Positions 17,281 to 43,278 of a stretch of 64,000 nucleotides of DNA are shown piece after piece. A model generated the notes under the pieces. The model worked only from the letters and a program-made list of their open reading frames with translations, searched no databases and was not told the origin of the DNA. Made by a program: the position numbers and the translations under genes. Source of the stretch: Patescibacteria group bacterium. GTDB taxonomy: Bacteria > Patescibacteriota > Dojkabacteria > J137. The stretch spans positions 395,569-459,568 of the forward strand of contig BOLA01000001.1 of NCBI GenBank assembly GCA_016861265.1, in the 5' to 3' direction. Within the stretch, counting starts at the first letter, position 1; each line of letters starts with the position of its first letter.

Positions 17281-18579
17281 TTAAAAAAGAGTTCTGATTT
17301 GACTCCAGGTTTTATCTGCGGTCTTTTCCCAGTCGTACCTTTCTGCCACAGCCCTACCCTTTTTAATAAACTCCTGCTGAAGGTTGTTGTCTCTTAGGTA
17401 TTCAATTATTTCTTTACTTGCCTTCTCTATATTTGCAGAATCAACTAAATACGCACCGCCATCTGTAACTTCTGGCAAACATGAGTAATTGCCAACCACT
17501 GCAGGTACTTGGGCCGCCATTGCCTGTAAAGGACCAAAACTGAATCCTTCGTACTTAGAAAAGTTAAAGTAGCAGTAGGCTTCTTTAATTAAGACCGTTA
17601 GGTCTTCATCACTGACCCTATCAGTAGTTGTTATATTTTCTAGAAGTCCATTTCTTTTTAACTCCTTAAGCACTCTATCGGCCCTTTCATTTTTTGGTTT
17701 AATTTTTGAACCTGTGGCCTTTGTAAAGTCCTTCCCAACCAAAACAAGCTTATTAGGTACATTATCAATATTAGATTCGGTTATTACTTTAAATAGTTTT
17801 ATTAAATCAAAAATACCTTTGTTTTTCTCTAAACCTGAATCGTAAATAAAGTATTTTTTTTCTTCGAGAGAAAATGCCTTCATTACGTGAGTCAACAATT
17901 TGGGATCAGTATCTTCAAAAAATTTTTCATCAACACCTAGATATATCGGGTAGATTTTCTCTTCCTTTACTCTTCCGTGTTTTACCAAATCTTTTTTAGA
18001 GAAATTAGAGTTTGTTAATACTAGGTCAGCATGCCTTATTCCATTGAACATTGAACGGTAGAATATTCCTTTAAGAATATTATGGATAAAACTTTTAGAA
18101 GAATAACTGTTTGTTGCAATTGGAATTGCATCGTGGGCCATTACTACTGTTTTAGGAACAAACGAAAGCTCTCTTTTTAATATCCAGGTAGAAGGTAATC
18201 CTCTTTCAAAGTTTACCGAGAAATATACATCAGGTTTGATTTCTTCAATCGCAGGTTTAAAAGTTAATTTCCATCTTTTAATATTTCCAACACTTGAATC
18301 CACTGCTTCTCCCAATGAATAAAAGCCGATTGTTTTAATATATTGGTCAACACTGAATTGAGACAATCCTAATGCAATGAGATTTTTTTTAAGGTCGTAG
18401 AAACCAACAAAATATACTTCTATGCTGTCTTCCAAAGCTAGTTTAATAATTCTTTTTATGACTTCTTTACCGTACTTACCAATCCCTCTAAATGAATACT
18501 GATCAAAGAGAAATGTAGTGTCGATTAGTAATCTTTTTGTCTCAATCTGTTCACTTTGAGTTTGTGCGTTGTCTTGCAT
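17281..18579 (-). CDS. glycosyltransferase family 4 (GT-B, GT1/GT4 type)
   Basis: C-terminal EGFSFGPLQAMAAQVPAVVG matches the GT4 E-x7-E sugar-nucleotide-binding motif. Confidence 0.7.
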   Translation of the reverse strand: MQDNAQTQSEQIETKRLLIDTTFLFDQYSFRGIGKYGKEVIKRIIKLALEDSIEVYFVGFYDLKKNLIALGLSQFSVDQYIKTIGFYSLGEAVDSSVGNIKRWKLTFKPAIEEIKPDVYFSVNFERGLPSTWILKRELSFVPKTVVMAHDAIPIATNSYSSKSFIHNILKGIFYRSMFNGIRHADLVLTNSNFSKKDLVKHGRVKEEKIYPIYLGVDEKFFEDTDPKLLTHVMKAFSLEEKKYFIYDSGLEKNKGIFDLIKLFKVITESNIDNVPNKLVLVGKDFTKATGSKIKPKNERADRVLKELKRNGLLENITTTDRVSDEDLTVLIKEAYCYFNFSKYEGFSFGPLQAMAAQVPAVVGNYSCLPEVTDGGAYLVDSANIEKASKEIIEYLRDNNLQQEFIKKGRAVAERYDWEKTADKTWSQIRTLF

Positions 18580-18677
18580 AAAATTATTTTAATACTTTAT
18601 TGATAGATTAAGAACAAGATTTTAACTCGAGATTGTAAAATAAACATTAAAAAATTTATTAATGCTAAAATTTATAC

Positions 18678-19628
18678 ATGACAACAGCAATAATAATTGT
18701 AAATTATCAAACTGCAAAGTATTTAAAAAAGTGCTTGAGATCTGTATTTAAGAATACTCAAGATTTTAAAGTTATTCTTGTTCAAAATTCCCCTGATGAA
18801 GATTCAATTAAAGTTCAAGTTGAGTTTCAGAGAAAATACCCTGATCTAATTCATGTAATAACACACGGCAGAAATTTAGGTTTTGTAGGTGGAATTAACT
18901 CTGCATTTGAGGAAGCAATAAAATATGAAAAAATATGTTTGCTAAATAGCGATGTTGAAGTTACAAGAAATTGGCTAGCTGAATTAAACAAACTTTTAGA
19001 TGATCCGGAAATTGTTCAAATTAGTCCGGATACAAACACTCTTCATATATATAGAGAACCATTATTAAATAGAATTCTAAGAAGAACTCCTTTGGGTGCT
19101 TACAAAATATTATTCAAACCACTTAAATCTTTAGCAGACACTAAAGGATTTAAAGAATACTCTCAATTCTATGAATTCCCGGGAGGCTATTGCAACGTGT
19201 TCAAATCGGAGTTCTTTAAAGAACCCTATTCAAGAAAGGATTACTTTGTTGACCCCAATATTATTCATGGCTACTGGGACGAGTTTGACTTAACAAACTA
19301 CCTAAGATTATTTGGAAAAGTTGGCTGGACCGACAATTCTTATGTATATCATTACTATAATGTGAGCTTTAACAAGATAAAAGAAGATGCTCAAGGAATG
19401 AAAGAAAAGCTTCAATTACTTAACGGGTTATATGTAATGCAAAAATGGAAAGATTATATGTTTAAATCATTATCCGAAATGCCTATACAAGTATTAATAG
19501 ACAGAAACGATTCCTATGTGGTAAAAATGGCACTATCATATTTGGGAATTCTTCAAACAAATCCGAATGCGGAGGAATATATAAATTCAATACCCGCAAA
19601 AGAAATAGGAGAAAAATTCTTAAAATAA
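18678..19628 (+). CDS. glycosyltransferase family 2
   Basis: N-terminal AIIIVNYQTAKYLKKCLRS (GT2 IIVNYN-type start) and a downstream DxD region. Confidence 0.65.
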   Translation: MTTAIIIVNYQTAKYLKKCLRSVFKNTQDFKVILVQNSPDEDSIKVQVEFQRKYPDLIHVITHGRNLGFVGGINSAFEEAIKYEKICLLNSDVEVTRNWLAELNKLLDDPEIVQISPDTNTLHIYREPLLNRILRRTPLGAYKILFKPLKSLADTKGFKEYSQFYEFPGGYCNVFKSEFFKEPYSRKDYFVDPNIIHGYWDEFDLTNYLRLFGKVGWTDNSYVYHYYNVSFNKIKEDAQGMKEKLQLLNGLYVMQKWKDYMFKSLSEMPIQVLIDRNDSYVVKMALSYLGILQTNPNAEEYINSIPAKEIGEKFLK

Positions 19629-19646
19629 TATTTATAATTAAAAAAT

Positions 19647-20639
19647 TTGCTTATGAAATTAGCTGTAGTTACCGGTTCGGCCGGATTTATAGGGACCAAT
19701 CTTGTGAAATTATTACTTGAGAAAGAATACTATGTTATAGGTATTGATAATTTTTACTCCAGTGAACAATGGAAGTCTGAACTTTTTAAGGAAAATGATA
19801 ACTACGAGTTTATAATGCATGACATTGTAAAACCATATATTGATATTGTAGAAAATTCCAGACTATTTAAATTGCATGGTAAAGTTGATGAAATCTATAA
19901 TTTAGCATGTCCTGCATCTCCACCTAGATATATTGATTTATCTTTGGAGACAATTAGAATTAATACCGACGGAGTGTTCAATGCACTAGAATTAGCAAAA
20001 AAACATAATGCAAAAATATTGCATACTTCAACTTCCGAAGTATACGGTGATCCTCTTGTTCATCCACAGGTAGAAAGTTATAGAGGTAATGTTAATACCG
20101 TTGGGCCACGAAGCTGCTACGACGAAGGGAAAAGAATTAGCGAGACCATTTGTTACGAATATAAAAGATTATTCAATACAAAAATTAAGTTAGTTAGAAT
20201 TTTTAATACTTATGGTCCTTACATGGACCCTAACGATGGTAGAGTTATTACCAATTTTATTAATCAGGCTTTAAAGGGTGAAAATCTAACAATATACGAA
20301 GAAGGCAAGCAAACCAGATCTTTTCAATATATTGATGATTTATTAGAAGCGTTCCTAAAATTAATGGCAACGGAAGATGACTTTTATGGACCAATAAATT
20401 TGGGTAATCCGGACGAATTTACAATAAAAGAATTAGCTGAGATAGTGCTTGAGCTGATTGAGTCAAAAAGTCAAATTGATTATATAAAAATGGATGCCAA
20501 TAACCCATATAAATCATCACACGATCCGCAGCAACGAAGACCAGATATAAGTCTTGCAAAAGAAAAGTTGAACTGGGAGCCTAAAATAAAATTAAGAGAT
20601 GGTTTAGTAAAAACAATTGAATACTATAAAAGTCTGTAA
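19647..20639 (+). CDS. UDP-glucuronate decarboxylase (UDP-xylose synthase), NAD-dependent epimerase/dehydratase family
   Basis: VVTGSAGFIGTNL Rossmann motif and a YDEGKR catalytic region typical of UXS-type decarboxylases (YxxxK active site). 330 aa. Confidence 0.75.
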   Translation: MLMKLAVVTGSAGFIGTNLVKLLLEKEYYVIGIDNFYSSEQWKSELFKENDNYEFIMHDIVKPYIDIVENSRLFKLHGKVDEIYNLACPASPPRYIDLSLETIRINTDGVFNALELAKKHNAKILHTSTSEVYGDPLVHPQVESYRGNVNTVGPRSCYDEGKRISETICYEYKRLFNTKIKLVRIFNTYGPYMDPNDGRVITNFINQALKGENLTIYEEGKQTRSFQYIDDLLEAFLKLMATEDDFYGPINLGNPDEFTIKELAEIVLELIESKSQIDYIKMDANNPYKSSHDPQQRRPDISLAKEKLNWEPKIKLRDGLVKTIEYYKSL

Positions 20640-20642
20640 CTT

Positions 20643-20665
20643 AAAGCGCGGCAAAGCCGCGCTTT
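20643..20665. terminator. bidirectional intrinsic terminator
   Basis: Perfect hairpin aaagcgcggc-aaa-gccgcgcttt between convergent genes. Confidence 0.65.
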
Positions 20666-22187
20666 ATTCTCGCTTAAGGATTTGAAATCCTTTGTACTGC
20701 TCTACTTCAATAAAATTATCATCAATTTCTGTTTTTAAACTTGGTTTAATTGCCAAGTCACTTTGAAGAAAAATTATATCGGCAGAAAGAATGTTTGCTT
20801 TTTCCTTCTCATACATTTCTTCTGTAAAATACATTTGTACATAAAAGAAATAATTATTAATAAAGTGAAGCTTGCTGAATGTGAATACCCAGGTATTAGA
20901 TGTATATAAATAAGGTCTTTTATAGTCTGAGTATTTGTTTACAATATATTCCGAAAAATTTTCAGTTAAATTATCTTTTTGAAAGAATAAACTTTCTACT
21001 TTATTTGTATCTTGGAAAAATGAACTGTAATAGAAATATGGAGATAACGATATATTTAATACTTTACCAACATTGCCCTCCTGCTCTGTAAAAAGGAAAA
21101 GCAGCAATCCAAATCCCGAAATAAAAATTAGAAGTTTTGTAAATTTAAAAAATATTTGAGTTGTCTTCTTAAAGTTATTTACAAAATATATTAATAGAAA
21201 TAATATTCCAGGCATTAACTGTAATAAATAATGCGGATAACTCCTTTGAGGATACAGTACAAGAAAAATCTCAAAAATAATTATATTGATTAGTACATAA
21301 TTCTGATGAGTGAGTATGTTTCTTTTATTAAGAAAAACATATTTAAATGATACTGCCGCAACTGCACCTCCAAATAGAATTAACAAAAGCAGACTTCGAC
21401 CTATCACACTACCTAGAATGTTTACTGTATATGTAGTCTGGTCCGCATAACCAAAGTTAATAGTGATTAGAGTCTTGTATGCTTCTTCTAAATTTCCGCT
21501 TATTATGAATACAAAAATCAGTATTAACAAAGGGACAAGAAACCCCACCAAAAACTTTACTAAGTCCTTGATCAACAGCTTTCTATTGCTAATCAAGATT
21601 GAGAATATATAAATACCTGTAACAAACAAGATCTCTGCAAATGCTTGGAATTTAAAACAAAAGCTCAGAAACAACAGGAAACCTTCAAAGTAGGAAAGTC
21701 TATTATTTAATATCCTAAGAAAAAATAGAGATATTATTGGGACAAAAAAGACTTCAACGTTTACTGTATTACCTTCTAAGACGGGAAGTACAAGTAATAA
21801 GGAAATAATTGATAATACAAAACTTGAGGTTTTCTTACCTACTCCTAGCTTCTTTAATATATGATAAAAAATTATTATATTCAGAATCTTAATTACAATT
21901 GCTGCACATCTGAGAAAGAACATACCACTAATAGGCCCCAGAACAGATGTAACCATATAAATAATATAGATTAGTGGGGGTTTATGGTCCCAAACATCTT
22001 GATATAAAACCTCTCCGCTTAACATTGAGTGGGCAACAGCAGCATATACTCCTTCGTCAATTTCAAAGTATTTCTGAAATAAGTGAGGAATACTCAATAC
22101 TATAAGTAATAAGATTGGGATAAATAGTGTGGATCTAAAAATCTTACTAAGGCTATTTAATTTCATATACAAATACCTTATTATCAA
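20664..22187 (-). CDS. polytopic membrane protein, GT-C-fold glycosyltransferase-like (ArnT/PMT-type)
   Basis: 507 aa with more than 10 predicted TM helices. A periplasmic-loop D/E-rich N-terminal region is typical of GT-C (GT39/GT83-like) enzymes. Confidence 0.5.
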   Translation of the reverse strand: MIIRYLYMKLNSLSKIFRSTLFIPILLLIVLSIPHLFQKYFEIDEGVYAAVAHSMLSGEVLYQDVWDHKPPLIYIIYMVTSVLGPISGMFFLRCAAIVIKILNIIIFYHILKKLGVGKKTSSFVLSIISLLLVLPVLEGNTVNVEVFFVPIISLFFLRILNNRLSYFEGFLLFLSFCFKFQAFAEILFVTGIYIFSILISNRKLLIKDLVKFLVGFLVPLLILIFVFIISGNLEEAYKTLITINFGYADQTTYTVNILGSVIGRSLLLLILFGGAVAAVSFKYVFLNKRNILTHQNYVLINIIIFEIFLVLYPQRSYPHYLLQLMPGILFLLIYFVNNFKKTTQIFFKFTKLLIFISGFGLLLFLFTEQEGNVGKVLNISLSPYFYYSSFFQDTNKVESLFFQKDNLTENFSEYIVNKYSDYKRPYLYTSNTWVFTFSKLHFINNYFFYVQMYFTEEMYEKEKANILSADIIFLQSDLAIKPSLKTEIDDNFIEVEQYKGFQILKRE

Positions 22188-23550
22188 ACTCCTTAATTAA
22201 ACTTGCATTAGAATCGATATCTTCCTTAGTGATTTTGTTTGTAATTGGACTCCATTCTGTCCATACATAAATTCCAGGTGTCCTTAGAGCGTAGTCATCC
22301 GAAAAATAAATCTTTGAATTTAACAAGTTTCTTTGCGAGTAGTAAAGAATCTCAGGTCTATCTGCTGCAATAAATGTTTCTTCCGTATAATTATCTTTTA
22401 ACCATTCACCAGATTCGACAAAGTAACTTTCTACTTTGGGAAACTCTTTGGTATTTACGATTGTCCCAGTTAAATACATACCTAATAATGCAGTTTGTAA
22501 TGCTGAGACAATGACCAAGCTCAATATAAAAATTCGTGGTGAAAATAGTGATCTGATTATTACAAAAATTGAACATATAAAAATAATAAGAAAAGGAATA
22601 ACGGAAACGAAATATCGCATTAGCCCTGCTGTACCAAAGGCTCCCCGACTCCACAAAACCGCTTGTACGGTTACAAAACCAGTAAACAATACGAATGAAT
22701 ATGTAATAAGTTTTTTATTGACTAGTTTATGCTTATATTTACCTAGAAAAAATACTGCAATAATAAAGCAAGTGCTCAAGATAAACTCTTTTGTCAGGAA
22801 AAGTTTTGGATAATCAAACAATGTACCATTGCCATAGTTACCGGCAGAATAAGATTGAAAAAAAGTTCTAAAGTATAGAATATCTCCTGTAATAAAGAAT
22901 CCCAATAAATCCCAAATTATGAATGGCAAGAATGAATATAGAGTATTTTTTACAATTTGTTTTGCAGTTAGTTTATATGCGTACAAAATATAACCAAGAT
23001 AAATAGCAATAAAAAATAGACCTTCAATTCTTGCCAGCACGCTAAGACCAATAAAAAGACTTGCTAACGTAAACTTCTTTTTTGTAAGAAAATAGAAAGA
23101 ACCTACTAATGTTAGTGTGAAAATTGGTTCTGTAAGAACTGATACAGAAGATTTGAATAGCGTTAAGCTAAATGAACTTAATATTAATGCCACAACTGCA
23201 ACTGCAAAATTCTTATAGACATTCAAAACAATTTTATAAACCAACCACGAAATTAAAATAAATATTAAAGTATTAATTATTTCTATAAGAAAAAAATCTT
23301 TAATATTAAATATTTGCACTATTAATCCCAAAGGGTAAATGTAAAGAGGTTTAGACCAAACATTCAATCCTAATATCAGGTTTTGCGGAAAGTCTGCGAA
23401 TATGGATCTTAGTTCTAAGAAATGCATATATGAGTCTGGTTCCCACTCGGTATTATTAAACGTGAATAAGGTTACTAACTTAACAAGAAATACTACTACT
23501 ATTAAAAGTAAGACAAACTTTGTTTTGTTATTTAATATCCAGGATTTCAT
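22153..23550 (-). CDS. polytopic membrane protein, GT-C-fold glycosyltransferase-like (paralog)
   Basis: 465 aa, highly hydrophobic. Overlaps the downstream paralog by 35 nt. Confidence 0.45.
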   Translation of the reverse strand: MKSWILNNKTKFVLLLIVVVFLVKLVTLFTFNNTEWEPDSYMHFLELRSIFADFPQNLILGLNVWSKPLYIYPLGLIVQIFNIKDFFLIEIINTLIFILISWLVYKIVLNVYKNFAVAVVALILSSFSLTLFKSSVSVLTEPIFTLTLVGSFYFLTKKKFTLASLFIGLSVLARIEGLFFIAIYLGYILYAYKLTAKQIVKNTLYSFLPFIIWDLLGFFITGDILYFRTFFQSYSAGNYGNGTLFDYPKLFLTKEFILSTCFIIAVFFLGKYKHKLVNKKLITYSFVLFTGFVTVQAVLWSRGAFGTAGLMRYFVSVIPFLIIFICSIFVIIRSLFSPRIFILSLVIVSALQTALLGMYLTGTIVNTKEFPKVESYFVESGEWLKDNYTEETFIAADRPEILYYSQRNLLNSKIYFSDDYALRTPGIYVWTEWSPITNKITKEDIDSNASLIKEFDNKVFVYEIK

Positions 23551-25284: not shown

Positions 25285-25327
25285 CTAAAGAATAATTAAT
25301 ATATCATTTTTAAATTAAAACATTGCA

Positions 25328-26062: not shown

Positions 26063-26066
26063 TAGT

Positions 26067-27389: not shown

Positions 27390-27403
27390 TTTATACATAC
27401 AAT

Positions 27404-36297: not shown

Positions 36298-37201
36298 TAT
36301 TTAATGTTTGATTATATGTATATTTTAAATAGCTGGAACAAATTGTCCAGTTCCTGCTTTTCTTTGTTTCATCGGCAATAAATTTTCTTTTGTTACGAAC
36401 ATAGTTTAAATTTCTATTACACCAATTCAGTGCACTTTGAAGGTCTTCCACAGTTCGTTGCTCTAATATAATTCCATTATTATAATTCTGTATCAACTCG
36501 GGAACAATACCTACATCTGTCGAAACAGGAAAGCATCCGGTTGCCATGCTTTCGAAAAGAGGAATTGGCTCTCCTTCATTTTTTGATCCAACCAATAATA
36601 CGTCTATGGAGTTATAAAATTTATTCATTTCAGTATGTGTTACATTACCAGGTGCTAACTTAATCTCAAATTTATTTCTTATAGCAGGTTCAATAATATC
36701 TTGATATCCTTTAATTGGATCAGAGATCCTTCCAGCCCAGCCTAGCTTCAAACCACCATTAATATTTCCCATTCTAAAAAATTTTGAGGTATCATAGCCA
36801 TTAGGTACAAAAAAAATATTATTACTTACTTCATTAAAAATATTATATAAACGCTTGGAAACTGTTATAACACTATCTGCATCGTTTAAATAAACCTCCT
36901 TAACTTCCCTAGGAGACTTTGGCCCAATAGGGGGAGTATCTTCCCACCTATGACTTGAGATCTCTTTTATAACTTTGGCTCCTTTCAAATCAAAGTTTTT
37001 ATAATAATCATCTGCGTAAAAGAAAATGTGAAGTAGGTCAAAATCATACCTATTAAGATCAGGTTTAAGTTCCGAATATACAATCTCAAAATCAAAATCT
37101 TTTCTAAGATACGGAATGAAACCTTTCGCACAATTATCAAATGCCCAATCCGGAACGTCTACCATTAACAGTATTTTAGGTTTGGATTTGAAAAATAGCA
37201 T
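36281..37201 (-). CDS. glycosyltransferase-like protein (GT-B C-terminal half-like)
   Basis: 306 aa. It lies in the GT operon and overlaps the upstream GT2 by 17 nt. Motifs are weak. Confidence 0.4.
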   Translation of the reverse strand: MLFFKSKPKILLMVDVPDWAFDNCAKGFIPYLRKDFDFEIVYSELKPDLNRYDFDLLHIFFYADDYYKNFDLKGAKVIKEISSHRWEDTPPIGPKSPREVKEVYLNDADSVITVSKRLYNIFNEVSNNIFFVPNGYDTSKFFRMGNINGGLKLGWAGRISDPIKGYQDIIEPAIRNKFEIKLAPGNVTHTEMNKFYNSIDVLLVGSKNEGEPIPLFESMATGCFPVSTDVGIVPELIQNYNNGIILEQRTVEDLQSALNWCNRNLNYVRNKRKFIADETKKSRNWTICSSYLKYTYNQTLNNGAKL

Positions 37202-37279
37202 ATTTTAAAATAATATTAAGTAATAATTACAAATGGATTAGCATATTAGAGGTGGTCATATGGCCACCTCTCTATCAGA

Positions 37280-38029
37280 TCATTGTATGTAGAACCTGGA
37301 TTCTCCTGTTATATTACTTTCAGATTGAATCATTATTGTACCTGAGGCGCTACAACTATAATTATTGTAGTTACCCTGAAGTATTGGGTTGGAACCACTA
37401 CATCCGCTCTGTTCATTAGCTGTAAAAATTATAGGTGTTCCGTACCCTATATAGCAATACGTTACCGTTTGCCCATTCTCTTGCCTGTGCATCATACATC
37501 CACTCGTACCTTGATCATATTCATCGAAATAGTAACCACTCATTGTAATTCTATCTGGATCGTTTGTACCTTGTTTGCTTTCAAATCTCAAGTGCAGATG
37601 CGTACCATCAGAGTTTCCACATCCATCGGAGAAGGGTCCTGAATACAACTCTCCTAACTTCTGTCCTTTCGTAACTGTCTGACCATTACTAACATTAACA
37701 TGATTTTTGTCTAAGTGATAAAACTGCATTTCATAACCATTGAATTCTATTACCAAATTTGTTGAATAGTTGCAAACATCTTTGTGCGTTACAACTCCAT
37801 CCTCAGGGGAGACAATATTCGCAACACTAGTATCACTTCTTTGAACATCTATAGCATAATTATCACCCGAAACCCAATTGTGGGAAGAATTATAATATAA
37901 TCCCTGTGCATGCCATGTTTGGGAAAATTTTAAATCTAAATTATCTTCAAATGGGAAACGATAGTTTGCACTGACAATATGTTGAGTAAAAAGCGAGAAT
38001 AGGACTAATATAAGAATTAGCGTTTTCAT
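37280..38029 (-). CDS. secreted M23-family (LytM-like) metallopeptidase-like protein
   Basis: Signal peptide. YAIDV...GVV...FYHLDKNHVNVSNGQTVTKGQKLGEL...GNSDGTHLHLRFE follows the M23 motif order (HL...GQ.IG...G.TG.STGPHLHFE). Confidence 0.55.
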   Translation of the reverse strand: MKTLILILVLFSLFTQHIVSANYRFPFEDNLDLKFSQTWHAQGLYYNSSHNWVSGDNYAIDVQRSDTSVANIVSPEDGVVTHKDVCNYSTNLVIEFNGYEMQFYHLDKNHVNVSNGQTVTKGQKLGELYSGPFSDGCGNSDGTHLHLRFESKQGTNDPDRITMSGYYFDEYDQGTSGCMMHRQENGQTVTYCYIGYGTPIIFTANEQSGCSGSNPILQGNYNNYSCSASGTIMIQSESNITGESRFYIQ

Positions 38030-38817
38030 TTTAAATTCTTTAAACTATTAAGTATGATATTTTTTAAAGTATCTGCTTCTATGCTGTTCTCAGTGTTTTT
38101 TGTCTCGATGAATGACTGATATGTATCTGATGTAGCATAATCAATATCCCAATTTTCAAGATTCTCAAACGCCCTGCCATCTATTGTTTGTCTATCATAT
38201 TTACTATATAGAGTATAAAAATTTAGCTGAGTTTCATATCCGAAAGGGGTCTTCTGAAGATAGACTATATCTAACAGAGGGTAATCTCTGTAATATTTAC
38301 TATTTTCAAATATTTTGATAATAGATTTGAGAAAAGAACTCTCATTCTTAACAACTACATCTTTTGAGATTCGGATAAATCGTTTCTCTTTTTCATTAAT
38401 TAAAAATAATCGAGTACTTCCTTTGTAATATTTTGTAAGAAAGTTGTTGTCATAAATTTCTATAAAGTTATCCTGCTCAAATTCATAAGTTACCCATTCC
38501 TTGTTACTATAATCCACTACAGAATATTTACTATAATTTTGAGGAACGAGTAACTTTTCTATTAACTTTGATCTCACCTCATCTGGTAATACAGTAATGG
38601 TATTTTTAATTGGAATATCATCCCTTTCGATATTACTTCCACTAATGAACTCTATGAACTTTTGTTGAAGCTCCAATTCGTCTCCTTCATCACCACCTGT
38701 ACCAGTGGAGATATTTTCTATAGTACTATCATTACTGTTACTTACTTTAGTATACGTAAGATATAAGATAGATACTATAGCAATGATGATGCTCGTTGCA
38801 GCAAGAAATTTTCTCAT
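38026..38817 (-). CDS. hypothetical exported/membrane-anchored protein
   Basis: N-terminal hydrophobic anchor and no motif. Sandwiched in an operon between the M23-like and tail-fibre-like genes. Confidence 0.4.
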   Translation of the reverse strand: MRKFLAATSIIIAIVSILYLTYTKVSNSNDSTIENISTGTGGDEGDELELQQKFIEFISGSNIERDDIPIKNTITVLPDEVRSKLIEKLLVPQNYSKYSVVDYSNKEWVTYEFEQDNFIEIYDNNFLTKYYKGSTRLFLINEKEKRFIRISKDVVVKNESSFLKSIIKIFENSKYYRDYPLLDIVYLQKTPFGYETQLNFYTLYSKYDRQTIDGRAFENLENWDIDYATSDTYQSFIETKNTENSIEADTLKNIILNSLKNLK

Positions 38818-38835
38818 GTTTGTAATCTATAACAA

Positions 38836-39747
38836 TTATTTCTGAAGGCTCAACAATGTTTCTCTAAGTTGTGCATTCTCCTCCTCGATCCTATTCATCC
38901 TCTCATCTAAGTTTATTAGATATAGGGTTAACTCTTCAATTTTTTCCATCTGTTTTTGTTGCATGTCCCCTAGTGACAGCCCATTCTCCTCGATATCTTT
39001 TGCAGCTGGTATTCCAGGTAGATGTTTATTTTTACTAATATAATTTTTTACCTCTGCTAAAGTTCTTAGTCTATAAGTACTCTCAAATACGTAATCTGCC
39101 CATACATTTGATGTAACCTTAACCTCATTAGCTTTAATTTTCCCAGGCACTATGAGCGCACCTCCATTTGTGGTGATGACAACATTGGCTCCAGATATTT
39201 CATTGGCTATTGTAAAATTATCGTCACTTGAATTTCCATAACCAGTCCATGCTTTCCTCCCCGAACTATAGCCATCGGGATACCACCTTATGTATGAATG
39301 TGTACCGCCTTCAAGTGTTAACATTCCTGCTGTAGAACCTTTAATATGTAGTTGAGACTGTGGGCTAGTAGTTCCTAGACCAACGTTTCCAGTAGTATCT
39401 ATTAGTAAACTTGGTGTACTACTAGCGTGGGTTGCTACAGAGAACTTATCTCCAGAGCCAGTTTGAATAGTTACATTTGTTGCTGAAGTTGGAATATCAT
39501 AACTTGAGAAAATCTTTAAATCAGCATAATCAGCGTCATTTCGAATTGCAAAGTTTAATCCAGTAGTTGACTGCTTAATCTGTAGTTTTGTAGACGGGAC
39601 ATCTGTTCCGATACCTACATTACCATCATTATAATATATTACATTTCCTGTGGAAGACCATTGTCCCGCAGTGGCTAATATTGGAAGATTTATAAAGAAG
39701 GTCCCTAAAAGTAGAGCTGTAATAATATATTTTTTATCTAGTTTCAT
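38836..39747 (-). CDS. secreted tail-fibre-like protein with S74-type C-terminal intramolecular chaperone-like module
   Basis: Signal peptide and two GNVG(I/L)GT..P...L.IK.ST repeats, as in tail-fibre-domain proteins. The C-terminus ESTYRLRTL...HLPGIP...GLSLGDM...EELTLYLINLDERMNRIEEEN follows the S74 chaperone pattern (S-x-x-RLK, lPelv, coiled coil). Confidence 0.5.
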   Translation of the reverse strand: MKLDKKYIITALLLGTFFINLPILATAGQWSSTGNVIYYNDGNVGIGTDVPSTKLQIKQSTTGLNFAIRNDADYADLKIFSSYDIPTSATNVTIQTGSGDKFSVATHASSTPSLLIDTTGNVGLGTTSPQSQLHIKGSTAGMLTLEGGTHSYIRWYPDGYSSGRKAWTGYGNSSDDNFTIANEISGANVVITTNGGALIVPGKIKANEVKVTSNVWADYVFESTYRLRTLAEVKNYISKNKHLPGIPAAKDIEENGLSLGDMQQKQMEKIEELTLYLINLDERMNRIEEENAQLRETLLSLQK

Positions 39748-39873
39748 ATTTATAAATAAAAGGTAAGGAATGTAAGAAGAGAATAACTATGGAGGATGTT
39801 CGGTGATAATCATTATTTAATATAACCACTCACATGGTAATCTACTCGGGCAGTAATTTCAATTTATAGCAAA

Positions 39874-41070
39874 TTATAATATTTCCCAATCTACCGGCAA
39901 CGATACTGCACCCTGATCCTGATTCTTAAGAAGAATTCTAAACTGATACCTATTAGAGTGGTAATCTAACGTTTCGTTTGTAACTGCATCAAAGATTGCT
40001 GCCGTAATAGCATAATCGTTATCCAGCAAAAAATTATTAGATATTTTAATTTTCACTAACCCACTGTTGTTTGGAGTAATTACAATGTTTCTATTAGTCG
40101 TATTGGTTCCCGTAATATGCAAACCATCCTGTCTATAGATTCCTATACCAAACATTACTTCTTTATGATCAGGTTTATTTACTTTATAGGAGATATCAAT
40201 ATTAATATTTCCAACTTCTTTAAATTCCTTTACAACTTCACCTTTGTCATTCTTTATTTCTATGTTTGTTATTTCTACATCTTTATTACCCCATCTGTCT
40301 TTTTCTGTTGCTTCTTTCACCTGGGGAATAGAAACTTCGTTAATTCTTTTGTATTCTTCCGTAACTAGGTAAGGGTTTCCATCCATTTTTAGTTCGGATC
40401 TATCTACCAGAAGAGCCCTGTCACAGTAGGCCTTAACTGAGTCCATATTGTGACTTATGTATATAATTGTCTTTCCTTCCTTCTTTAATTTTCTTATTAC
40501 ACTAGCTGATTTCTTCTGAAAATTTTCATCTCCAACAGACAAAATTTCATCAAGCAAATATATTTCTGCATTACTTTGAATCGCTATAGAGAATGCCAGC
40601 CTAACCATCATTCCGCTTGAATAGTTTTTTACAGGTACGTCTATAAAATTTCTTAACTCAGCGAAGTCTACAATCTCGTCAAACTTTTCTTCAAGAAAAT
40701 GTCTTGTCATGCCTAATATAGTTCCATTCAAGAAGATATTTTCTCTTCCGCTTAAATCAGGGTTAAAACCCACACCCAATTCTAAAAAGGGCACCATAGT
40801 TCCATTAATCTTAATTGTACTGCCCTTATTCGCGTTATATATTCCTGCGAGAATTTTAAGCAATGTAGATTTTCCACTTCCATTTCTACCAACTATTCCT
40901 ACAAACTCACCTCGTTTAATTTCAAAGTTGATATTTTGCAGTGCCTTAAATTCCCTTGTTTTACCTTGATTAAAAAACGAGGTAAACAATGCTCTTAGTG
41001 TGGATTTCTTATCTTCGTGTATATAAAAAGTCTTATTTAAATTTTGTACTAAAATTGCTGTTTCATTCAT
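39874..41070 (-). CDS. ABC transporter ATP-binding protein, polysaccharide/teichoic-acid exporter type (Wzt/TagH-like) with C-terminal extension domain
   Basis: Walker A GIVGRNGSGKSTLLKILAG, the LSGRE signature and Walker B IYLLDEILSVGD. An extra C-terminal domain of about 150 aa is present, as in Wzt. Confidence 0.8.
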   Translation of the reverse strand: MNETAILVQNLNKTFYIHEDKKSTLRALFTSFFNQGKTREFKALQNINFEIKRGEFVGIVGRNGSGKSTLLKILAGIYNANKGSTIKINGTMVPFLELGVGFNPDLSGRENIFLNGTILGMTRHFLEEKFDEIVDFAELRNFIDVPVKNYSSGMMVRLAFSIAIQSNAEIYLLDEILSVGDENFQKKSASVIRKLKKEGKTIIYISHNMDSVKAYCDRALLVDRSELKMDGNPYLVTEEYKRINEVSIPQVKEATEKDRWGNKDVEITNIEIKNDKGEVVKEFKEVGNINIDISYKVNKPDHKEVMFGIGIYRQDGLHITGTNTTNRNIVITPNNSGLVKIKISNNFLLDNDYAITAAIFDAVTNETLDYHSNRYQFRILLKNQDQGAVSLPVDWEIL

Positions 41071-41071
41071 A

Positions 41072-41869
41072 TTAAAAATATTCTGCGATTTCTCTTACTT
41101 TAACTGTAAAATACGACCAACCCACAACAAATACAATAATACTTGCTATTAAGTATGCAAACATTAATGGAATATTCAGTTGACCATAAATTCCGAATGC
41201 AGCTCTTGCCTGATTTATGATAATTCCTAATGGGTTTGCTGCAATATAATTTGATACACTACCTTCCACTAAATTTGAAGAAATCGAATAGAAGATAGGG
41301 GTTAGCCATTGTAGTAAAAACATTCCCAATTCGAAAACGTTCTTTAAATCCCTTAATTTTATTGTGGCTATACTTGTGAAGAATGAAATTCCTACACCGA
41401 ATATAAATAAGATTATAGATAAGAATATAAAGTAGATTATTGAGAATGGTGTAATTGTAACGTTATTAATTAGAGCAATAATTATAAAGAACACCATATT
41501 AATGGCTAGATTTATAAACGCGCTTATTAATGCACTGAAAATAGCAATCTGCCTAGGGAAACTAACTTTTAGAATTATGTGAGCCCTATCAAGTAGCGAC
41601 ATTTGCCCTAAGATTATCAGTTCGTTAAAAAAGGTGAACATTATAATTCCTAACAGCAAATAGAGTTGATAATTAGGAATCTGAAAATTAGTAATTCTTG
41701 TCCAAACCACATATTGAACTAAGAATTGCGAATAGGGTTTAATTAAGACCCACAACACTCCTAGGGCGGAGTTTTGATATCTCATTTTAAAGCTGGTTTT
41801 AACTAATTCGCTTAGCAGGTCTATTTTATTTTGTGAAAGTAAATTCATATTCGAAATATTATAACTCAT
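41072..41869 (-). CDS. ABC-2 type transporter permease (Wzm/TagG-like)
   Basis: 265 aa with 6 TM helices, lying immediately upstream of the ATPase with a 1-nt gap. Confidence 0.7.
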   Translation of the reverse strand: MSYNISNMNLLSQNKIDLLSELVKTSFKMRYQNSALGVLWVLIKPYSQFLVQYVVWTRITNFQIPNYQLYLLLGIIMFTFFNELIILGQMSLLDRAHIILKVSFPRQIAIFSALISAFINLAINMVFFIIIALINNVTITPFSIIYFIFLSIILFIFGVGISFFTSIATIKLRDLKNVFELGMFLLQWLTPIFYSISSNLVEGSVSNYIAANPLGIIINQARAAFGIYGQLNIPLMFAYLIASIIVFVVGWSYFTVKVREIAEYF

Positions 41870-41919
41870 TTAATACGGTTTTCTATATTTAGGCAATATC
41901 AATATGTTAAATTATATTT

Positions 41920-43278
41920 ATGACCAAAAATTTACATGTATTCAAAAACAGAAAGGAAACATTATTCTTTGTGGTCTTATTCATTATTTCGATTATTTCT
42001 ACTGGGTTGGTTTACGCACTCCACTTTAATGGACCACCTATTAGAAGCGACGGACTAGGCTATTACGTATATCTACCATCAATATTTGTCTACAACGATA
42101 TTTCTATGAACAAATTTATTGATGCCTACTCAAAACACTATAACGATACCCCTACTGATTATTGGAATGGAGTCTATAAATACGAAAATTCAGGCAACTA
42201 TCTGGATAAATACCCCGTGGGTGTCGCAGTGATGTCTTTACCGTTCTTTTTATTAGCCCATTTTGGTACATTAATTATAAGTAATTTCTCTGGTATTCCT
42301 CCGAATGGTTTTACAGATCCCTTGTATCACGCAGCACAAAGCTTTAGTGGCTTATTTTACGCACTACTAGGACTCTTAATTCTAAAAAGAATATTAGATA
42401 AATACTTTAGTTCCAAGTCGGTTTATCTAACTTTGATTGCAGTAACATTCGGAACAAATTTATTTCACTACTTCACATACGATGCAGTGTTTAGTCACCC
42501 CTACTCATTTTTCTTATTTACTTTGTTTATATACTTAACAATTAAATGGTACAGTAATCCCAATAAAATAAATTCAATATTGATTGGTATTACAACAGGA
42601 TTAATAACAATTGTAAGGCCCACAAACTTGGTTATTGTTCTATTTTTCCTTCTTTTTGGTTTAGGCAGCCGCAACACTTTTACGCAGATACAAGAAAGAA
42701 TAAGTCTGTACTTTTATAAGTATAAAAAGATAATACTTATAATAACTTCTGCCCTTTTAGTATTAAGCATACAAATACTTTATTGGTACTTAATAACAGG
42801 AAGATTATTTGTCTATTCTTATACGGATGAATATTTTGATCTGAAAAATCCTCAGATTTTAAACGTATTATTTAGCATTAGAAAAGGGTTTTTCTTTTGG
42901 TCTCCAATTCTTTTATTGTCTATACCCGGATTAATATTTGTTAGGAGAAAACTAAAAGGCTTTAATCTCGCCTTCTTAATTTTCTTTTTTGTAAATGTAT
43001 ATATAGTGTCAAGTTGGTGGAGCTGGTGGTATGGTGGCGGATTTGGAATGCGTGCCCTGATTGAAGTAATACCATTTTTGGCTTTGCCGATTGCAGCAAT
43101 TTTTGAAAAAATATTAGAAATAAGGAATAAAACAAAAAAATACATATTTCTTTTTGTAATAGTAATCTTAATTGTCTTTACAACATACATGATGATTCAA
43201 TACTGGAGGGGATTAGTTCCAATTGACAATCCAGGGATTACAACTGTTATGAATGCCTTGTTAAATAGATATGTTTAA
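41920..43278 (+). CDS. polytopic membrane protein, GT-C-fold glycosyltransferase-like (paralog)
   Basis: 452 aa, more than 10 TM helices. Confidence 0.45.
   Translation: MTKNLHVFKNRKETLFFVVLFIISIISTGLVYALHFNGPPIRSDGLGYYVYLPSIFVYNDISMNKFIDAYSKHYNDTPTDYWNGVYKYENSGNYLDKYPVGVAVMSLPFFLLAHFGTLIISNFSGIPPNGFTDPLYHAAQSFSGLFYALLGLLILKRILDKYFSSKSVYLTLIAVTFGTNLFHYFTYDAVFSHPYSFFLFTLFIYLTIKWYSNPNKINSILIGITTGLITIVRPTNLVIVLFFLLFGLGSRNTFTQIQERISLYFYKYKKIILIITSALLVLSIQILYWYLITGRLFVYSYTDEYFDLKNPQILNVLFSIRKGFFFWSPILLLSIPGLIFVRRKLKGFNLAFLIFFFVNVYIVSSWWSWWYGGGFGMRALIEVIPFLALPIAAIFEKILEIRNKTKKYIFLFVIVILIVFTTYMMIQYWRGLVPIDNPGITTVMNALLNRYV

What the first reader, a model, noticed from the sequence alone, without database searches (positions are those of the whole stretch)
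17281..43278. 26-kb cell-envelope glycosylation super-cluster with six paralogous GT-C-like polytopic membrane proteins
One contiguous locus encodes the following:
- three GT4 and four GT2 enzymes, one with tandem GT2 domains
- a UDP-glucuronate decarboxylase, which yields UDP-xylose
- a GtrA-like protein and a Dpm1/GtrB-like polyprenyl-P-sugar synthase
- an FAD oxidoreductase
- a Wzm/Wzt-type ABC-2 exporter whose ATPase has a C-terminal extension

The most unusual part is six separate large polytopic membrane proteins. They lie at 20664-22187, 22153-23550, 23698-25284, 27893-29461, 29451-31538 and 41920-43278. All resemble GT-C (ArnT/PMT/YfhO-like) enzymes.

GT-C enzymes use lipid-phosphate-linked sugars on the outer face of the membrane. 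Six paralogs next to a Gtr-type polyprenyl-P-sugar synthase and flippase module imply extensive extracytoplasmic glycosylation of proteins or polymers. Such an expansion of one enzyme class within a single locus is unusual for a genome this reduced.
Basis: partly seen in the sequence, partly recalled or inferred. Interest (0 to 1): 0.55.

Follow-up and report, generated by a model that had tools for sequence, protein, structure and literature searches.

The report
Six-GT-C cell-envelope glycan locus in CPR
A tiny-genome (CPR/Patescibacteria) bacterium carries a 26-kb gene cluster that most likely builds a sugar polymer inside the cell, exports it, and decorates it outside the membrane with six very different membrane-embedded (GT-C) sugar transferases; every part is of a known kind, but six in one locus has not been described for this poorly understood group.

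Summary
All ORFs are at the stated coordinates. The soluble enzymes are three GT4, four GT2 (one tandem), a UDP-xylose synthase (human UXS1, E=1e-88), a GtrB/DPMS/ArnC-like GT2, GtrA, a flavoenzyme, and Wzm/Wzt with a Wzt_C domain.

All six polytopic proteins are best read as GT-C glycosyltransferases:
- AlphaFold models of M5 (pLDDT 93.5) and M6 (95.6) match only GT-C-fold structures at the top of the list (AftD, STT3, ArnT, PglB/AglB, ALG9, Emb, AftA). Transporters score at probability <0.1.
- The families of M1, M2 and M3 reach Pfam PMT_2/PMT. M3's profile aligns its WDE motif to yeast Pmt2.
- M4 is the weakest case (PMT_2 E=1e-3; 89% hhalign probability to M1).
- Each family has a conserved Asp just after TM1.

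"Paralogous" is overstated. BLAST finds no convincing pairwise similarity. Only profile-profile comparison links the six (nine pairs at 89-98%; reversed controls <7%).

Relatives keep the locus beside RNase J with 4-6 such polytopic proteins and a swappable cassette.

[quoted passage not shown] This is a new variant of a known kind. The conserved GT2-flavoenzyme-GtrA trio (family PRK07233, uncharacterised) is the most novel lead.

The parts
17281..18579 (-). GT4 glycosyltransferase (GT4a), cytoplasmic Leloir enzyme
   Evidence: Pfam Glycos_transf_1 2.2e-23 and Glyco_transf_4 1e-9. Ortholog present in L001 and L059.
18678..19628 (+). GT2 glycosyltransferase (GT2a), soluble
   Evidence: Pfam Glycos_transf_2 1.6e-16.
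19647..20639 (+). UDP-glucuronate decarboxylase (UDP-xylose synthase)
   Evidence: PDB: human UXS1 (4gll/2b69) at 1.2e-88 over the full length; the next family is at 6e-31. Pfam GDP_Man_Dehyd/Epimerase.
20664..22187 (-). M1, a GT-C-type membrane glycosyltransferase (PMT_2-like). The likely true start is the ATG at 22166.
   Evidence: Of 12 family members, 5 hit PMT_2 (best 1.5e-17) and one hits PMT (9e-8). D44, in the motif EIDEGVY after TM1, is invariant. hhalign probability to M2 is 97.7% and to M3 95.7%. The window protein itself has no Pfam hit and its profile has no PDB sequence hit.
22153..23550 (-). M2, a GT-C-type membrane glycosyltransferase
   Evidence: Its relative P0169 hits PMT_2 at 3.3e-7, above the gathering score. 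NCBIfam LA3751_2_3 'putative glycosyltransferase' 4e-8. W36-E37-P38-D39-S40 is invariant. hhalign probability to M1 is 97.7% and to M6 95%.
23698..25284 (+). M3, a GT-C-type membrane glycosyltransferase (PMT/PMT_2-like). It is the first gene of the M3-GT2-FAD-GtrA operon.
   Evidence: Homologs P0001 and P0003 carry PF13231/PF02366. Profile A1 hits yeast Pmt2 (6p25_B) at E=0.0022, with W50-D51-E52 aligned to the Pmt2 WDE motif. D51 is invariant.
25328..26062 (+). Polyprenyl-phosphate sugar synthase-like GT2 (GtrB/DPMS/ArnC-like); 244 aa, no TM helix
   Evidence: Pfam Glycos_transf_2 1.2e-32. The top PDB families are GtrB 5EKP 6e-18, DPMS 5MLZ 2e-13 and ArnC 6e-13. NCBIfam AglJ matches over the full length at 1e-19.
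26067..27389 (+). FAD-dependent oxidoreductase of the uncharacterised PRK07233 family (HpnE/PPO/CrtI-like)
   Evidence: NCBIfam NF005560 6e-144, 480 bits against a cutoff of 252. Pfam Amino_oxidase 3.8e-33. PDB: PPO 4e-11, phytoene desaturase 3e-10, UGM 1e-5. It starts 4 nt after the GT2 gene and ends 14 nt before gtrA. The trio recurs in 9 other loci.
27404..27892 (+). GtrA-family small membrane protein (flippase and/or membrane partner of the soluble GT2)
   Evidence: Pfam GtrA_DPMS_TM 6.3e-17.
27893..29461 (-). M4, a probable GT-C-type membrane glycosyltransferase (the weakest of the six)
   Evidence: PMT_2 E=1.1e-3, below the gathering score. hhalign probability to M1 is 88.9% over 193 columns, with D42-D43 aligned to M1 D44-E45. 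D42/D43 are conserved in its 3-sequence family. Its profile has no PDB hit. Orthologs are present in L058 and L059 and absent from L001.
29451..31538 (-). M5, a GT-C-fold glycosyltransferase (YfhO/PTPS_related/DUF6311-like) with a C-terminal CBM-like beta-sandwich at about residues 540-695
   Evidence: AF2 pLDDT 93.5, pTM 0.90. The top 26 Foldseek PDB hits are all GT-C (AftD 2e-8, STT3, ArnT, DPY19, AglB, PglB, Emb, AftA). The C-terminal domain hits CBM61/6/32/35. Family members hit PTPS_related (10), YfhO (4), PMT_2 and DUF2079. D45 is invariant in 67 sequences.
31565..32758 (-). GT4 glycosyltransferase (GT4b)
   Evidence: Pfam Glycos_transf_1 7e-21. Conserved in L001, L056, L058 and L059.
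32758..35364 (-). Tandem-GT2 protein (868 aa), a candidate backbone polymerase
   Evidence: Pfam Glycos_transf_2 with two stretches, plus Glyco_tranf_2_4 at 161-251 and Glyco_tranf_2_3 at 715-781. Weak NCBIfam hits to GlfT1 and rhamnosyltransferase. Conserved in L058 and L059.
35440..36297 (-). GT2 glycosyltransferase (GT2c), part of the window-specific cassette
   Evidence: Pfam Glycos_transf_2 2.9e-33. Absent from L058 and L059, which carry a GT4 plus an ATP-grasp protein here.
36281..37201 (-). Short GT4 glycosyltransferase (GT4c), part of the window-specific cassette
   Evidence: Pfam Glycos_transf_1 3.7e-14, partial match.
37280..38029 (-). M23 peptidase-domain protein, part of the window-specific cassette
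   Evidence: Pfam Peptidase_M23 8e-10.
38026..38817 (-). Unknown protein with an N-terminal TM segment or signal anchor (U1)
   Evidence: No family hit. One N-terminal hydrophobic segment.
38836..39747 (-). Fibre-like surface protein (U2): N-terminal anchor, GNVG(I/L)GT repeats, C-terminal coiled coil
   Evidence: PDB: Bdellovibrio bd2133 (8ond) 3.2e-7 and 'cell wall surface anchor family protein' (8ojn) 3.9e-6.
39874..41070 (-). Wzt ABC ATPase with a C-terminal glycan-binding Wzt_C domain
   Evidence: Pfam ABC_tran 4.7e-21 and Wzt_C 1.3e-22 at residues 257-389. NCBIfam TagH and galactan Wzt at 2e-53 to 4e-54, below cutoffs.
41072..41869 (-). Wzm ABC-2 permease
   Evidence: Pfam ABC2_membrane 2.3e-9. 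NCBIfam galactan Wzm 4e-13 and KpsM 7e-8.
41920..43278 (+). M6, a GT-C-fold glycosyltransferase of a very large unannotated family (LA_3751/3752-like)
   Evidence: AF2 pLDDT 95.6, pTM 0.94. The top 37 Foldseek PDB hits are all GT-C-fold proteins (ALG9 6.6e-4, AglB, STT3, PglB, ArnT TMq 0.53, Emb, AftA, AftB, Pmt4). Transporters score at probability <0.1. NCBIfam LA3751_2_3 4.4e-15. D44 is invariant in 77 sequences. The concatenated query gave 2449 proteins at E<=1e-30, and most of the best 150 match its M6 part.

Best explanation
The locus is a composite cell-envelope glycan factory in a Patescibacteria (CPR) bacterium.

Step 1 (inferred from gene content). The cytoplasmic Leloir enzymes build a glycan on a polyprenyl-PP carrier. 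These are three GT4, two single-domain GT2 and the tandem-GT2 candidate polymerase. They draw on sugar nucleotides that include UDP-xylose from the UXS.

Step 2 (inferred from family membership). Wzm/Wzt exports the finished chain. The Wzt_C domain recognises the chain end.

Step 3 (inferred). The soluble GtrB/DPMS/ArnC-like GT2 charges polyprenyl phosphate with a monosaccharide, and the GtrA-family protein acts as its membrane partner and/or flippase. The flavoenzyme encoded between these two genes probably remodels this lipid-linked donor, but its reaction is unknown.

Step 4. The GT-C fold and the conserved Asp are shown; the chemistry is inferred. Six GT-C enzymes use their conserved Asp in the first extracytoplasmic loop to transfer sugars from polyprenyl-P donors onto the exported polymer outside the membrane. 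This adds side branches or extends the chain. M5 uses its C-terminal CBM-like domain to hold the acceptor glycan.

The arrangement works like the multi-component transmembrane glycosylation systems that decorate rhamnose-rich wall polysaccharides and teichoic acids in Firmicutes. In scale it resembles the way mycobacteria build arabinan with several GT-Cs on an ABC-exported galactan.
For: GT-C fold and motifs:
- Fold for M5 and M6.
- PMT_2/PMT links for the families of M1, M2 and M3.
- Conserved Asp after TM1 in every family, mutually aligned.
- Nine of 15 profile-profile pairs score 89-98%; reversed controls stay <7%.

Donor module:
- The GT2's best PDB relatives are GtrB, DPMS and ArnC.
- GtrA.

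Export and polymer synthesis:
- Wzm, and Wzt with Wzt_C.
- UXS.

Gene arrangement:
- M4 and M5 lie in one tightly packed 14-kb minus-strand run with Wzm, Wzt and the GT4/GT2 genes. M5/M4 overlap by 11 nt and GT4b/tandem-GT2 by 1 nt.
- M3-GT2-FAD-GtrA are co-directional, with gaps of 43, 4 and 14 nt.

Other support:
- M5's C-terminal CBM-like domain matches the acceptor-binding CBMs of AftD and of GT136 ORF12 (PMC8035078; PMC11127046).
- Relatives L058, L059 and L001 conserve the arrangement beside RNase J.
- One GtrA flippase can serve several GT-Cs, and a soluble GT-A can pair with a small membrane protein (PMC8035078).
Against: - No priming phosphoglycosyltransferase (WecA/WbaP type) and no LCP ligase was found in the window. 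Polymer initiation and anchoring are therefore unaccounted for here.
- There is only one polyprenyl-P-sugar synthase for six GT-Cs. L001 has two.
- M4's assignment is weak.
- The window proteins M1, M2, M3, M5 and M6 do not themselves pass any Pfam GT-C threshold.
- M6-type genes elsewhere can stand alone beside surface proteins rather than beside glycan genes.
- Nothing identifies the sugars, the acceptor or the role of the flavoenzyme.
Confidence: 0.6

Rival explanations
1. Some or all of the GT-Cs are protein O-glycosyltransferases, like actinobacterial or eukaryotic PMT. They would modify secreted or surface proteins (pili, S-layer or fibre proteins such as U2) with sugars from the polyprenyl-P donor. 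The Wzm/Wzt polymer would be a separate product that merely sits next door.
For: - M1-M4 are nearest to PMT_2/PMT, and M3 aligns its WDE motif to yeast Pmt2.
- A fibre-like surface protein is encoded inside the locus.
- An M6 relative lies next to a large Ig/cadherin-repeat surface protein.
Against: - From my own knowledge, PMT_2 is a broad family that also includes ArnT-like and wall-polymer GT-Cs such as Listeria GtlB, which is listed as PMT-2 in PMC8035078.
- M4 and M5 are co-transcribed with the ABC-exported polymer genes.
- M5 carries a carbohydrate-binding-module-like domain.
Confidence: 0.2
2. The locus is a mosaic of several independent systems that accumulated at a recombination hot spot. 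The six GT-Cs would serve different acceptors (for example a lipid-anchored polymer, a wall polymer and proteins) rather than cooperate on one glycan.
For: - The six belong to several deeply diverged families.
- Gene content varies between close relatives. M4 is replaced by an unrelated 14-TM protein in L001. M2 and UXS are absent in L059. The cassette 35440-39747 is replaced by a GT4 plus an ATP-grasp protein in L058 and L059.
- There are five transcription directions across the locus.
Against: - The block M5-M4-GtrA-FAD-GT2-M3-M1 keeps its order and its position beside RNase J even at 44% protein identity. That argues for one functional unit.
- There is a single donor-synthesis module.
Confidence: 0.15
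3. The membrane proteins are not glycosyltransferases at all. They would be transporters, Wzy-type polymerases or O-antigen ligases.
For: - Five of the six window proteins have no direct Pfam hit.
- In L014, a Wzy_C protein occupies the slot next to the FAD gene.
Against: - No Wzy_C or transporter family matches any of the six.
- The M5 and M6 models match GT-C structures at probability 1.0, whereas transporters score <0.1.
- The conserved Asp sits after TM1, as in GT-C enzymes.
Confidence: 0.03

Closest known systems
Multi-component transmembrane (three-component, Gtr-type) glycosylation systems: GtrA/GtrB/GtrC of Shigella/Salmonella phages; CsbB/GtcA/YfhO and GtlA/GtcA/GtlB of Firmicutes; GacI/J/K/L of S. 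pyogenes; the Lactococcus Csd systems (PMC8035078, PMC9574508)
   Same: - A GT-A polyprenyl-P-sugar synthase, a GtrA-family protein and GT-C transferases are linked in one locus.
- One flippase may serve several GT-Cs.
- A soluble GT-A is paired with a small membrane protein, as in GacI/GacJ.
- The system sits beside an ABC-transporter-dependent polymer pathway, as in the Rha-CWPS loci.
   Different: - Six GT-Cs from several families sit in one locus, instead of one to three.
- A PRK07233-family flavoenzyme is inserted between the synthase and GtrA.
- The synthase has no TM helices.
- The organism is a CPR bacterium whose envelope polymers are unknown.
Mycobacterial arabinogalactan assembly: GlfT1/GlfT2, Wzm/Wzt (Rv3781/Rv3783), Rv3789 (GtrA-like), DprE1/DprE2, and the AftA-D/EmbA-C GT-Cs
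   Same: - A backbone made by cytoplasmic GT2 enzymes is exported by Wzm/Wzt and then extended outside by many GT-Cs using a polyprenyl-P-sugar.
- A flavoenzyme and a GtrA-like protein lie in the donor pathway.
- The M5 model's best structural match is AftD.
- Wzm and Wzt score against the NCBIfam galactan-exporter models, below cutoff.
   Different: - The donor synthase is a GT2, not a UbiA-type phosphoribosyltransferase.
- The flavoenzyme belongs to the Amino_oxidase/HpnE/CrtI family, not the DprE1 family.
- There is no DprE2.
- The GT-Cs are PMT_2/YfhO/LA3751-like, not Emb/Aft families.
Three-component pentofuranose systems (PPPRS, MATE flippase, GT136 GT-C; Kelly et al. 2024, PMC11127046)
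   Same: - Glycosylation happens outside the membrane, after polymerisation of an ABC-exported glycan.
- The GT-C has a C-terminal CBM.
- Auxiliary redox or epimerase enzymes diversify the lipid-linked donor.
- That paper noted loci with multiple GT-Cs and epimerases in Bacillus and Xanthomonas as unexplained.
   Different: - There is no PPPRS in the locus. A UbiA-family gene lies 13 kb away at 3934-4656 and is not linked.
- The flippase is GtrA-type, not MATE.
- Membership of GT136 was not tested.
Arn (L-Ara4N) lipid A modification pathway: ArnA/B/C/D/E/F/T
   Same: A UDP-GlcA decarboxylating SDR, an ArnC-like GT2, a small flippase and an ArnT-like GT-C occur together.
   Different: - The SDR is a true UXS type, not an ArnA type.
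- There is no aminotransferase, formyltransferase or deformylase.
- There is no lipid A in a monoderm CPR cell (my own knowledge).

Membership tests
GT-C fold glycosyltransferase superfamily | Polytopic membrane protein (8-13+ TM helices) with a cytoplasmic N-terminus | tested here: met
   Each of the six has roughly 8-13 hydrophobic segments, and Lys/Arg-rich N-termini precede TM1. The AF2 secondary structure of M5 and M6 agrees.
GT-C fold glycosyltransferase superfamily | Conserved acidic (Asp/Glu, DxD-like) motif in the first extracytoplasmic loop | tested here: met
   Asp invariant within each family alignment:
- M1 D44 (12 sequences)
- M2 D39 (10 sequences)
- M3 D51 (7 sequences)
- M4 D42/D43 (3 sequences)
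- M5 D45 (67 sequences)
- M6 D44 (77 sequences)

hhalign places M1 D44, M2 D39, M4 D42 and M6 D44 in register.
GT-C fold glycosyltransferase superfamily | Three-dimensional similarity to solved GT-C enzymes | tested here: met
   Met for M5 (top 26 PDB hits all GT-C) and for M6 (top 37 all GT-C-fold proteins). Not tested for M1-M4, because only two prediction jobs were allowed.
GT-C fold glycosyltransferase superfamily | Transfer from a polyprenyl-phosphate-linked sugar donor | not testable with these tools
   Needs biochemistry.
Pfam PMT_2 (PF13231) / PMT (PF02366), i.e. GT39/GT83-like | The protein itself scores above the family gathering threshold | tested here: not met
   M4 scores 19.7 bits against a cutoff of 26.1. 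M1, M2, M3, M5 and M6 have no hit. Only relatives pass: 5 of 12 for M1, P0169 for M2, and P0001/P0003 for M3. The six are therefore GT-C-like relatives of PMT_2, not demonstrable members.
YfhO (PF09586) family | Significant match of M5 to the YfhO model | tested here: not met
   M5 has no hit. Of its 67 relatives, 4 hit YfhO and 10 hit PTPS_related.
Gtr-type / multi-component transmembrane glycosylation system | GT-A polyprenyl-P-sugar synthase encoded with the system | tested here: met
   The best PDB families for the 244-aa GT2 are GtrB, DPMS and ArnC. The alignment covers only the N-terminal ~125 residues, and the protein lacks the usual TM helices.
Gtr-type / multi-component transmembrane glycosylation system | GtrA-family (or other) flippase encoded with the system | tested here: met
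   GtrA_DPMS_TM 6.3e-17.
Gtr-type / multi-component transmembrane glycosylation system | GT-C transferase genetically linked to the donor module | tested here: met
   M3 lies in the same co-directional gene run as GT2-FAD-GtrA. The linkage is conserved in L001, L055, L058 and L059.
ABC-transporter-dependent (Wzm/Wzt) glycan pathway | ABC-2 permease plus an ATPase with a Wzt_C glycan-binding domain | tested here: met
   The NCBIfam TagH and galactan Wzt/Wzm models match below their cutoffs.
ABC-transporter-dependent (Wzm/Wzt) glycan pathway | Priming phosphoglycosyltransferase (WecA/TagO or WbaP type) and a ligase (LCP or WaaL) | tested here: not met
   None was found among the window ORFs scanned by Pfam or inspected by eye. 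They may be encoded elsewhere in the genome.
Mycobacterial DPA/arabinan-type pathway | DprE1-type flavoenzyme (FAD_binding_4) with DprE2 and a UbiA-type DPPR synthase in the locus | tested here: not met
   The flavoenzyme belongs to the Amino_oxidase/PRK07233 family. The only UbiA-family gene is 13 kb away.

The most novel reading that the evidence does not exclude
The conserved trio of polyprenyl-P-sugar synthase, PRK07233-family flavoenzyme and GtrA defines an undescribed four-component variant of extracytoplasmic glycosylation. The trio is present here, in 7 other Patescibacteria-type loci and in 2 Verrucomicrobia-labelled MAG loci.

In this reading, an HpnE/CrtI/PPO-like flavoenzyme remodels the lipid-linked donor before a GT-C transfers it. 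It could do so in one of two ways:
- oxidise or epimerise the sugar, as a non-homologous analogue of DprE1; or
- saturate the polyprenyl carrier to a dolichol-like lipid.

In this CPR lineage the six GT-Cs would then assemble a whole extracytoplasmic glycan domain, arabinan-style, on an ABC-exported backbone. That would make it the organism's major wall polymer.
Probability: 0.15. Interest if true: 0.7.

Novelty: new variant of a known kind. Interest (0 to 1): 0.42.

Why it matters
The composition of the CPR/Patescibacteria cell envelope is largely unknown. These ultra-small episymbionts depend on surface contact with their hosts.

A locus this size is a large investment for such a genome: 21 genes, six of them GT-Cs. 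It is kept at the same chromosomal site across relatives, but with a swappable cassette and a varying set of GT-Cs. That pattern suggests a major, antigenically variable surface glycan.

The locus offers concrete targets: six catalytic Asp residues, one donor module and one exporter. These can be used for glycan analysis in cultivable relatives.

It also flags an uncharacterised flavoenzyme family that consistently rides with polyprenyl-P-sugar synthase and GtrA genes.

Tried and rejected
Searches that found nothing:
- An exact look-up of the window's M5 found no record.
- Direct Pfam and NCBIfam scans of the six proteins gave almost nothing: only M4 to PMT_2 weakly, and M2 and M6 to LA3751 below cutoff.
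- All-vs-all BLASTP found no paralogy.
- Profile searches against PDB sequences found nothing for M1, M2, M4, M5 or M6. Only M3 hit Pmt2.
- The listing of cluster members returned no source names.
- Paper searches for CPR plus GT-C or PMT_2, and for PRK07233, returned nothing.

- I concatenated queries. M1+M3 returned only M3 relatives.
- M4[1-400]+M2[1-365]+M6[1-430] in the exhaustive search was dominated by M6. M4 got only two relatives, so its alignment is shallow.

Libraries that were unavailable:

Ideas considered and rejected:
- The flavoenzyme as UDP-galactopyranose mutase. UGM matches only the N-terminal FAD-binding half at 1e-5. Amino_oxidase and HpnE match over the full length, and there is no GLF domain hit.
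- The flavoenzyme as DprE1. It belongs to a different family.
- The UbiA-family gene at 3934-4656 as part of the locus. It is 13 kb away, with housekeeping genes in between.
- The 3.7-kb contig that carries a 99%-identical M4 added nothing.

Full report
**Source and setting.** The window is AT-rich (GC about 0.30-0.39). A scan of reference genomes with the locus's flavoenzyme found 54 related loci, most of them labelled as Patescibacteria (CPR) MAGs. The closest is L001, labelled 'uncultured Candidatus Saccharibacteria', at 83% identity; most of the others are Shapirobacteria. The locus lies between RNase J (14846-16609) and a zinc-ribbon protein, an M48 protease and HisRS (43305-45898). The rest of the window is mostly housekeeping genes.

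**Observation check.**
- Pfam confirms three GT4, four GT2 (one with two GT2 domains), GtrA, an Amino_oxidase-type flavoenzyme, an ABC-2 permease, and an ABC ATPase with a Wzt_C domain.
- The SDR is a UDP-xylose synthase. Human UXS1 matches at 1.2e-88; the next family is at 6e-31.
- The three best solved relatives of the 244-aa GT2 are all polyprenyl-phosphate glycosyltransferases: GtrB 5EKP, DPMS 5MLZ and ArnC. Unlike them, it has no TM helix.

**Are the six membrane proteins GT-C enzymes?** Direct scans were nearly silent. Only M4 hit PMT_2 (E=1e-3, below threshold). M6 and M2 matched an NCBIfam 'LA_3751/LA_3752 putative glycosyltransferase' model below its cutoff. So I built a family alignment for each protein.
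- **M3.** Its three database homologs carry PF13231/PF02366. Its 7-sequence profile hits yeast Pmt2 (6P25_B, E=0.0022), with W50-D51-E52 aligned to the Pmt2 WDE motif.
- **M1.** Of 12 family members, 5 hit PMT_2 (best 1.5e-17) and one hits PMT.
- **M2.** One of seven relatives (P0169) passes the PMT_2 gathering score, and WEPDS is invariant.
- **M5.** It has a deep family (88 hits). Members hit PTPS_related, YfhO, PMT_2, DUF2079 and DUF6541, and are pre-annotated PF19830. As I recall, these families belong to Pfam's GT-C clan; I did not test that here. The AlphaFold2 model (pLDDT 93.5, pTM 0.90) has as its top 26 PDB matches only GT-C enzymes: AftD 2e-8, STT3 of the OST complexes, ArnT, DPY19, AglB, PglB, EmbA/B and AftA. 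Its C-terminal beta-sandwich matches CBM61/6/32/35 modules.
- **M6.** It belongs to a very large family. The concatenated query returned 2449 proteins at E<=1e-30, and most of the best 150 match its M6 part. The model (pLDDT 95.6, pTM 0.94) has as its top 37 PDB matches only GT-C-fold proteins: ALG9, AglB, STT3, PglB, ArnT (TM 0.53), Emb, AftA, AftB, Pmt4, ALG3, PIG-U and GPI-MT-I. Transporters appear only at probability <0.1.
- **M4.** This is the weakest case. It has only two relatives beyond a near-identical copy, and no PDB hit. Its profile does align to M1 at 88.9% probability over 193 columns.

**Conserved acidic motif.** Each family alignment has an invariant Asp 8-20 residues after TM1: M1 D44, M2 D39, M3 D51, M4 D42/D43, M5 D45, M6 D44. 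hhalign puts M1 D44, M2 D39, M4 D42 and M6 D44 in the same column. The N-termini are Lys/Arg-rich. By the positive-inside rule this loop is therefore extracytoplasmic, as the GT-C catalytic loop should be (PMC8035078).

**Paralogy.** All-vs-all BLASTP shows no convincing similarity. Profile-profile comparison connects all six:
- M1-M2 97.7% (E=1.4e-12, 361 columns)
- M3-M5 96.0%
- M1-M3 95.7%
- M2-M3 95.4%
- M2-M6 95.0%
- M1-M6 94.5%
- M1-M5 92.5%
- M3-M6 89.5%
- M1-M4 88.9%

Reversed-profile controls never exceed 6.9%. The six are therefore remote members of one superfamily, drawn from several old families. They are not a local duplication burst.

**Comparative genomics.**
- L058 (92% identical M5) keeps Wzt ... 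tandem-GT2-GT4-M5-M4-GtrA-FAD-GT2-M3-M2-M1-UXS-GT2. Between Wzt and the tandem GT2 it has a GT4 plus a RimK-like ATP-grasp protein, where the window has GT2c-GT4c-M23-U1-U2.
- L059 (M4 at 44% identity) keeps the same order and the same position beside RNase J. It lacks M2 and UXS.
- L001, L055 and L056 have M3 moved to follow GtrA, a second GtrB-like gene, and an unrelated 624-aa 14-TM protein in M4's place. That protein has no Pfam hit.
- The locus is therefore a stable feature of this lineage, with 4-6 GT-C-like genes and variable parts. This is the pattern seen in surface-antigen loci.

**Mechanism.** The 14-kb minus-strand run contains Wzm, Wzt, the variable cassette, four GTs, M5 and M4. 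Its genes are tightly packed, with several overlaps. This ties M4 and M5 to an ABC-transporter-dependent polymer. M3, GT2, FAD and GtrA form a second co-directional unit, with gaps of 43, 4 and 14 nt. The best-supported model has four steps:
1. The glycan is polymerised in the cytoplasm.
2. Wzm/Wzt exports it.
3. The GT2/GtrA pair makes and flips a polyprenyl-P-sugar donor.
4. The GT-Cs glycosylate the polymer outside the membrane, with M5's CBM-like domain binding the acceptor.

This is the logic of the multi-component transmembrane glycosylation systems reviewed in PMC8035078, and of the pentofuranose systems in PMC11127046. Because several GT-Cs are involved, it also resembles mycobacterial arabinogalactan assembly. 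Missing from the window are a priming phosphoglycosyltransferase and an LCP-type ligase.

**The flavoenzyme.** It is a full-length member of NCBIfam NF005560/PRK07233 ('hypothetical protein'; 480 bits against a cutoff of 252). It is related to HpnE, protoporphyrinogen oxidase and phytoene desaturases. Nine other loci, beyond the window, place it beside a GtrB-like GT2 and GtrA: L001, L004, L006, L008, L011, L014, L055, L058 and L059. Two of these carry Verrucomicrobia labels. The adjacent polytopic protein differs between loci: PMT_2 fused to GH8, DUF2142, Wzy_C, or unassigned. In most Shapirobacteria the gene instead lies between the EF-G/EF-Tu genes and the rml genes. Its reaction is unknown. 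Remodelling of the lipid-linked donor is a hypothesis only.

**Verdict.** All the parts are of known kinds. Three things amount to a new variant rather than a new kind:
- six GT-Cs from several families in one locus;
- a TM-less synthase paired with a separate GtrA;
- an embedded, uncharacterised flavoenzyme, all in a CPR bacterium.

Interest is moderate.

Noticed in passing
window 25328-27892; also L001, L004, L006, L008, L011, L014, L055, L058, L059: A trio recurs across Patescibacteria-type loci and two Verrucomicrobia-labelled MAG loci: a GtrB-like GT2, a PRK07233-family flavoenzyme (HpnE/CrtI/PPO-like, uncharacterised) and GtrA. The large polytopic protein next to it varies: PMT_2+GH8, DUF2142, Wzy_C or unassigned. 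In most Shapirobacteria loci the same flavoenzyme gene instead lies between the EF-G/EF-Tu genes and the rml (rhamnose) genes.
   Followed up: partly
window 38836-39747 (-): A 303-aa protein with an N-terminal anchor, repeated GNVG(I/L)GT motifs and a C-terminal coiled coil. It matches the Bdellovibrio fibre proteins bd2133 (8OND, 3e-7) and 8OJN (4e-6), so it is probably a trimeric surface fibre or adhesin. It is encoded inside the glycan locus of a likely episymbiont.
   Followed up: partly
window 35440-39747 versus L058:1804-4022 and L059:1889-4086: The segment between Wzt and the tandem GT2 is a strain-variable cassette. The window has GT2, GT4, M23 peptidase, an unknown protein and the fibre protein. 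The relatives have a RimK-like ATP-grasp protein plus a GT4.
   Followed up: partly
L001:16223-18097 (-), L056:2261-4135 (+), L055:51-1787 (+): Relatives carry a 578-624-aa protein with 12-14 TM segments, overlapping the start of M5, in the position M4 occupies in the window. It has no similarity to M1-M6 and no Pfam hit. Its identity is unknown.
   Followed up: partly
window 3934-4656 (+): A 240-aa UbiA-family prenyltransferase with an NDIEDSEDD motif, 13 kb from the locus. UbiA-type enzymes make the polyprenyl-P-ribose donors in the mycobacterial and GT136 systems. No link to this locus was shown.
   Followed up: no
window 54189-55064 (+), 55096-56172 (-), 61445-62524 (-): Two sugar-nucleotide pyrophosphorylase-type genes (NTP_transferase; ManC-like) and a further probable GT4 (EGFGLPLIEA motif, read by eye only) lie outside the locus. 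They may supply it or complement it.
   Followed up: no
window 5324-8461 (-): A 1045-aa protein whose only Pfam hit is DUF4012.
   Followed up: no
P0117, P0147, P0174, P0250 (relatives of M6): Some M6-family GT-C domains sit at the C-terminus of much longer proteins (769-1429 aa). This implies fusions to unknown N-terminal modules.
   Followed up: no
L011:4736-7411 (+): A PMT_2-type GT-C domain fused to a glycoside hydrolase family 8 domain, in a Moraniibacteriota MAG, next to the GtrA-FAD-GT2 module.
   Followed up: no
window 20664-22187 (-): The listed TTG start of M1 is probably 7 codons too far upstream. The ATG at 22166 gives 500 aa, the length of the orthologs P0004 and P0005 and of the gene called in L058.
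   Followed up: partly
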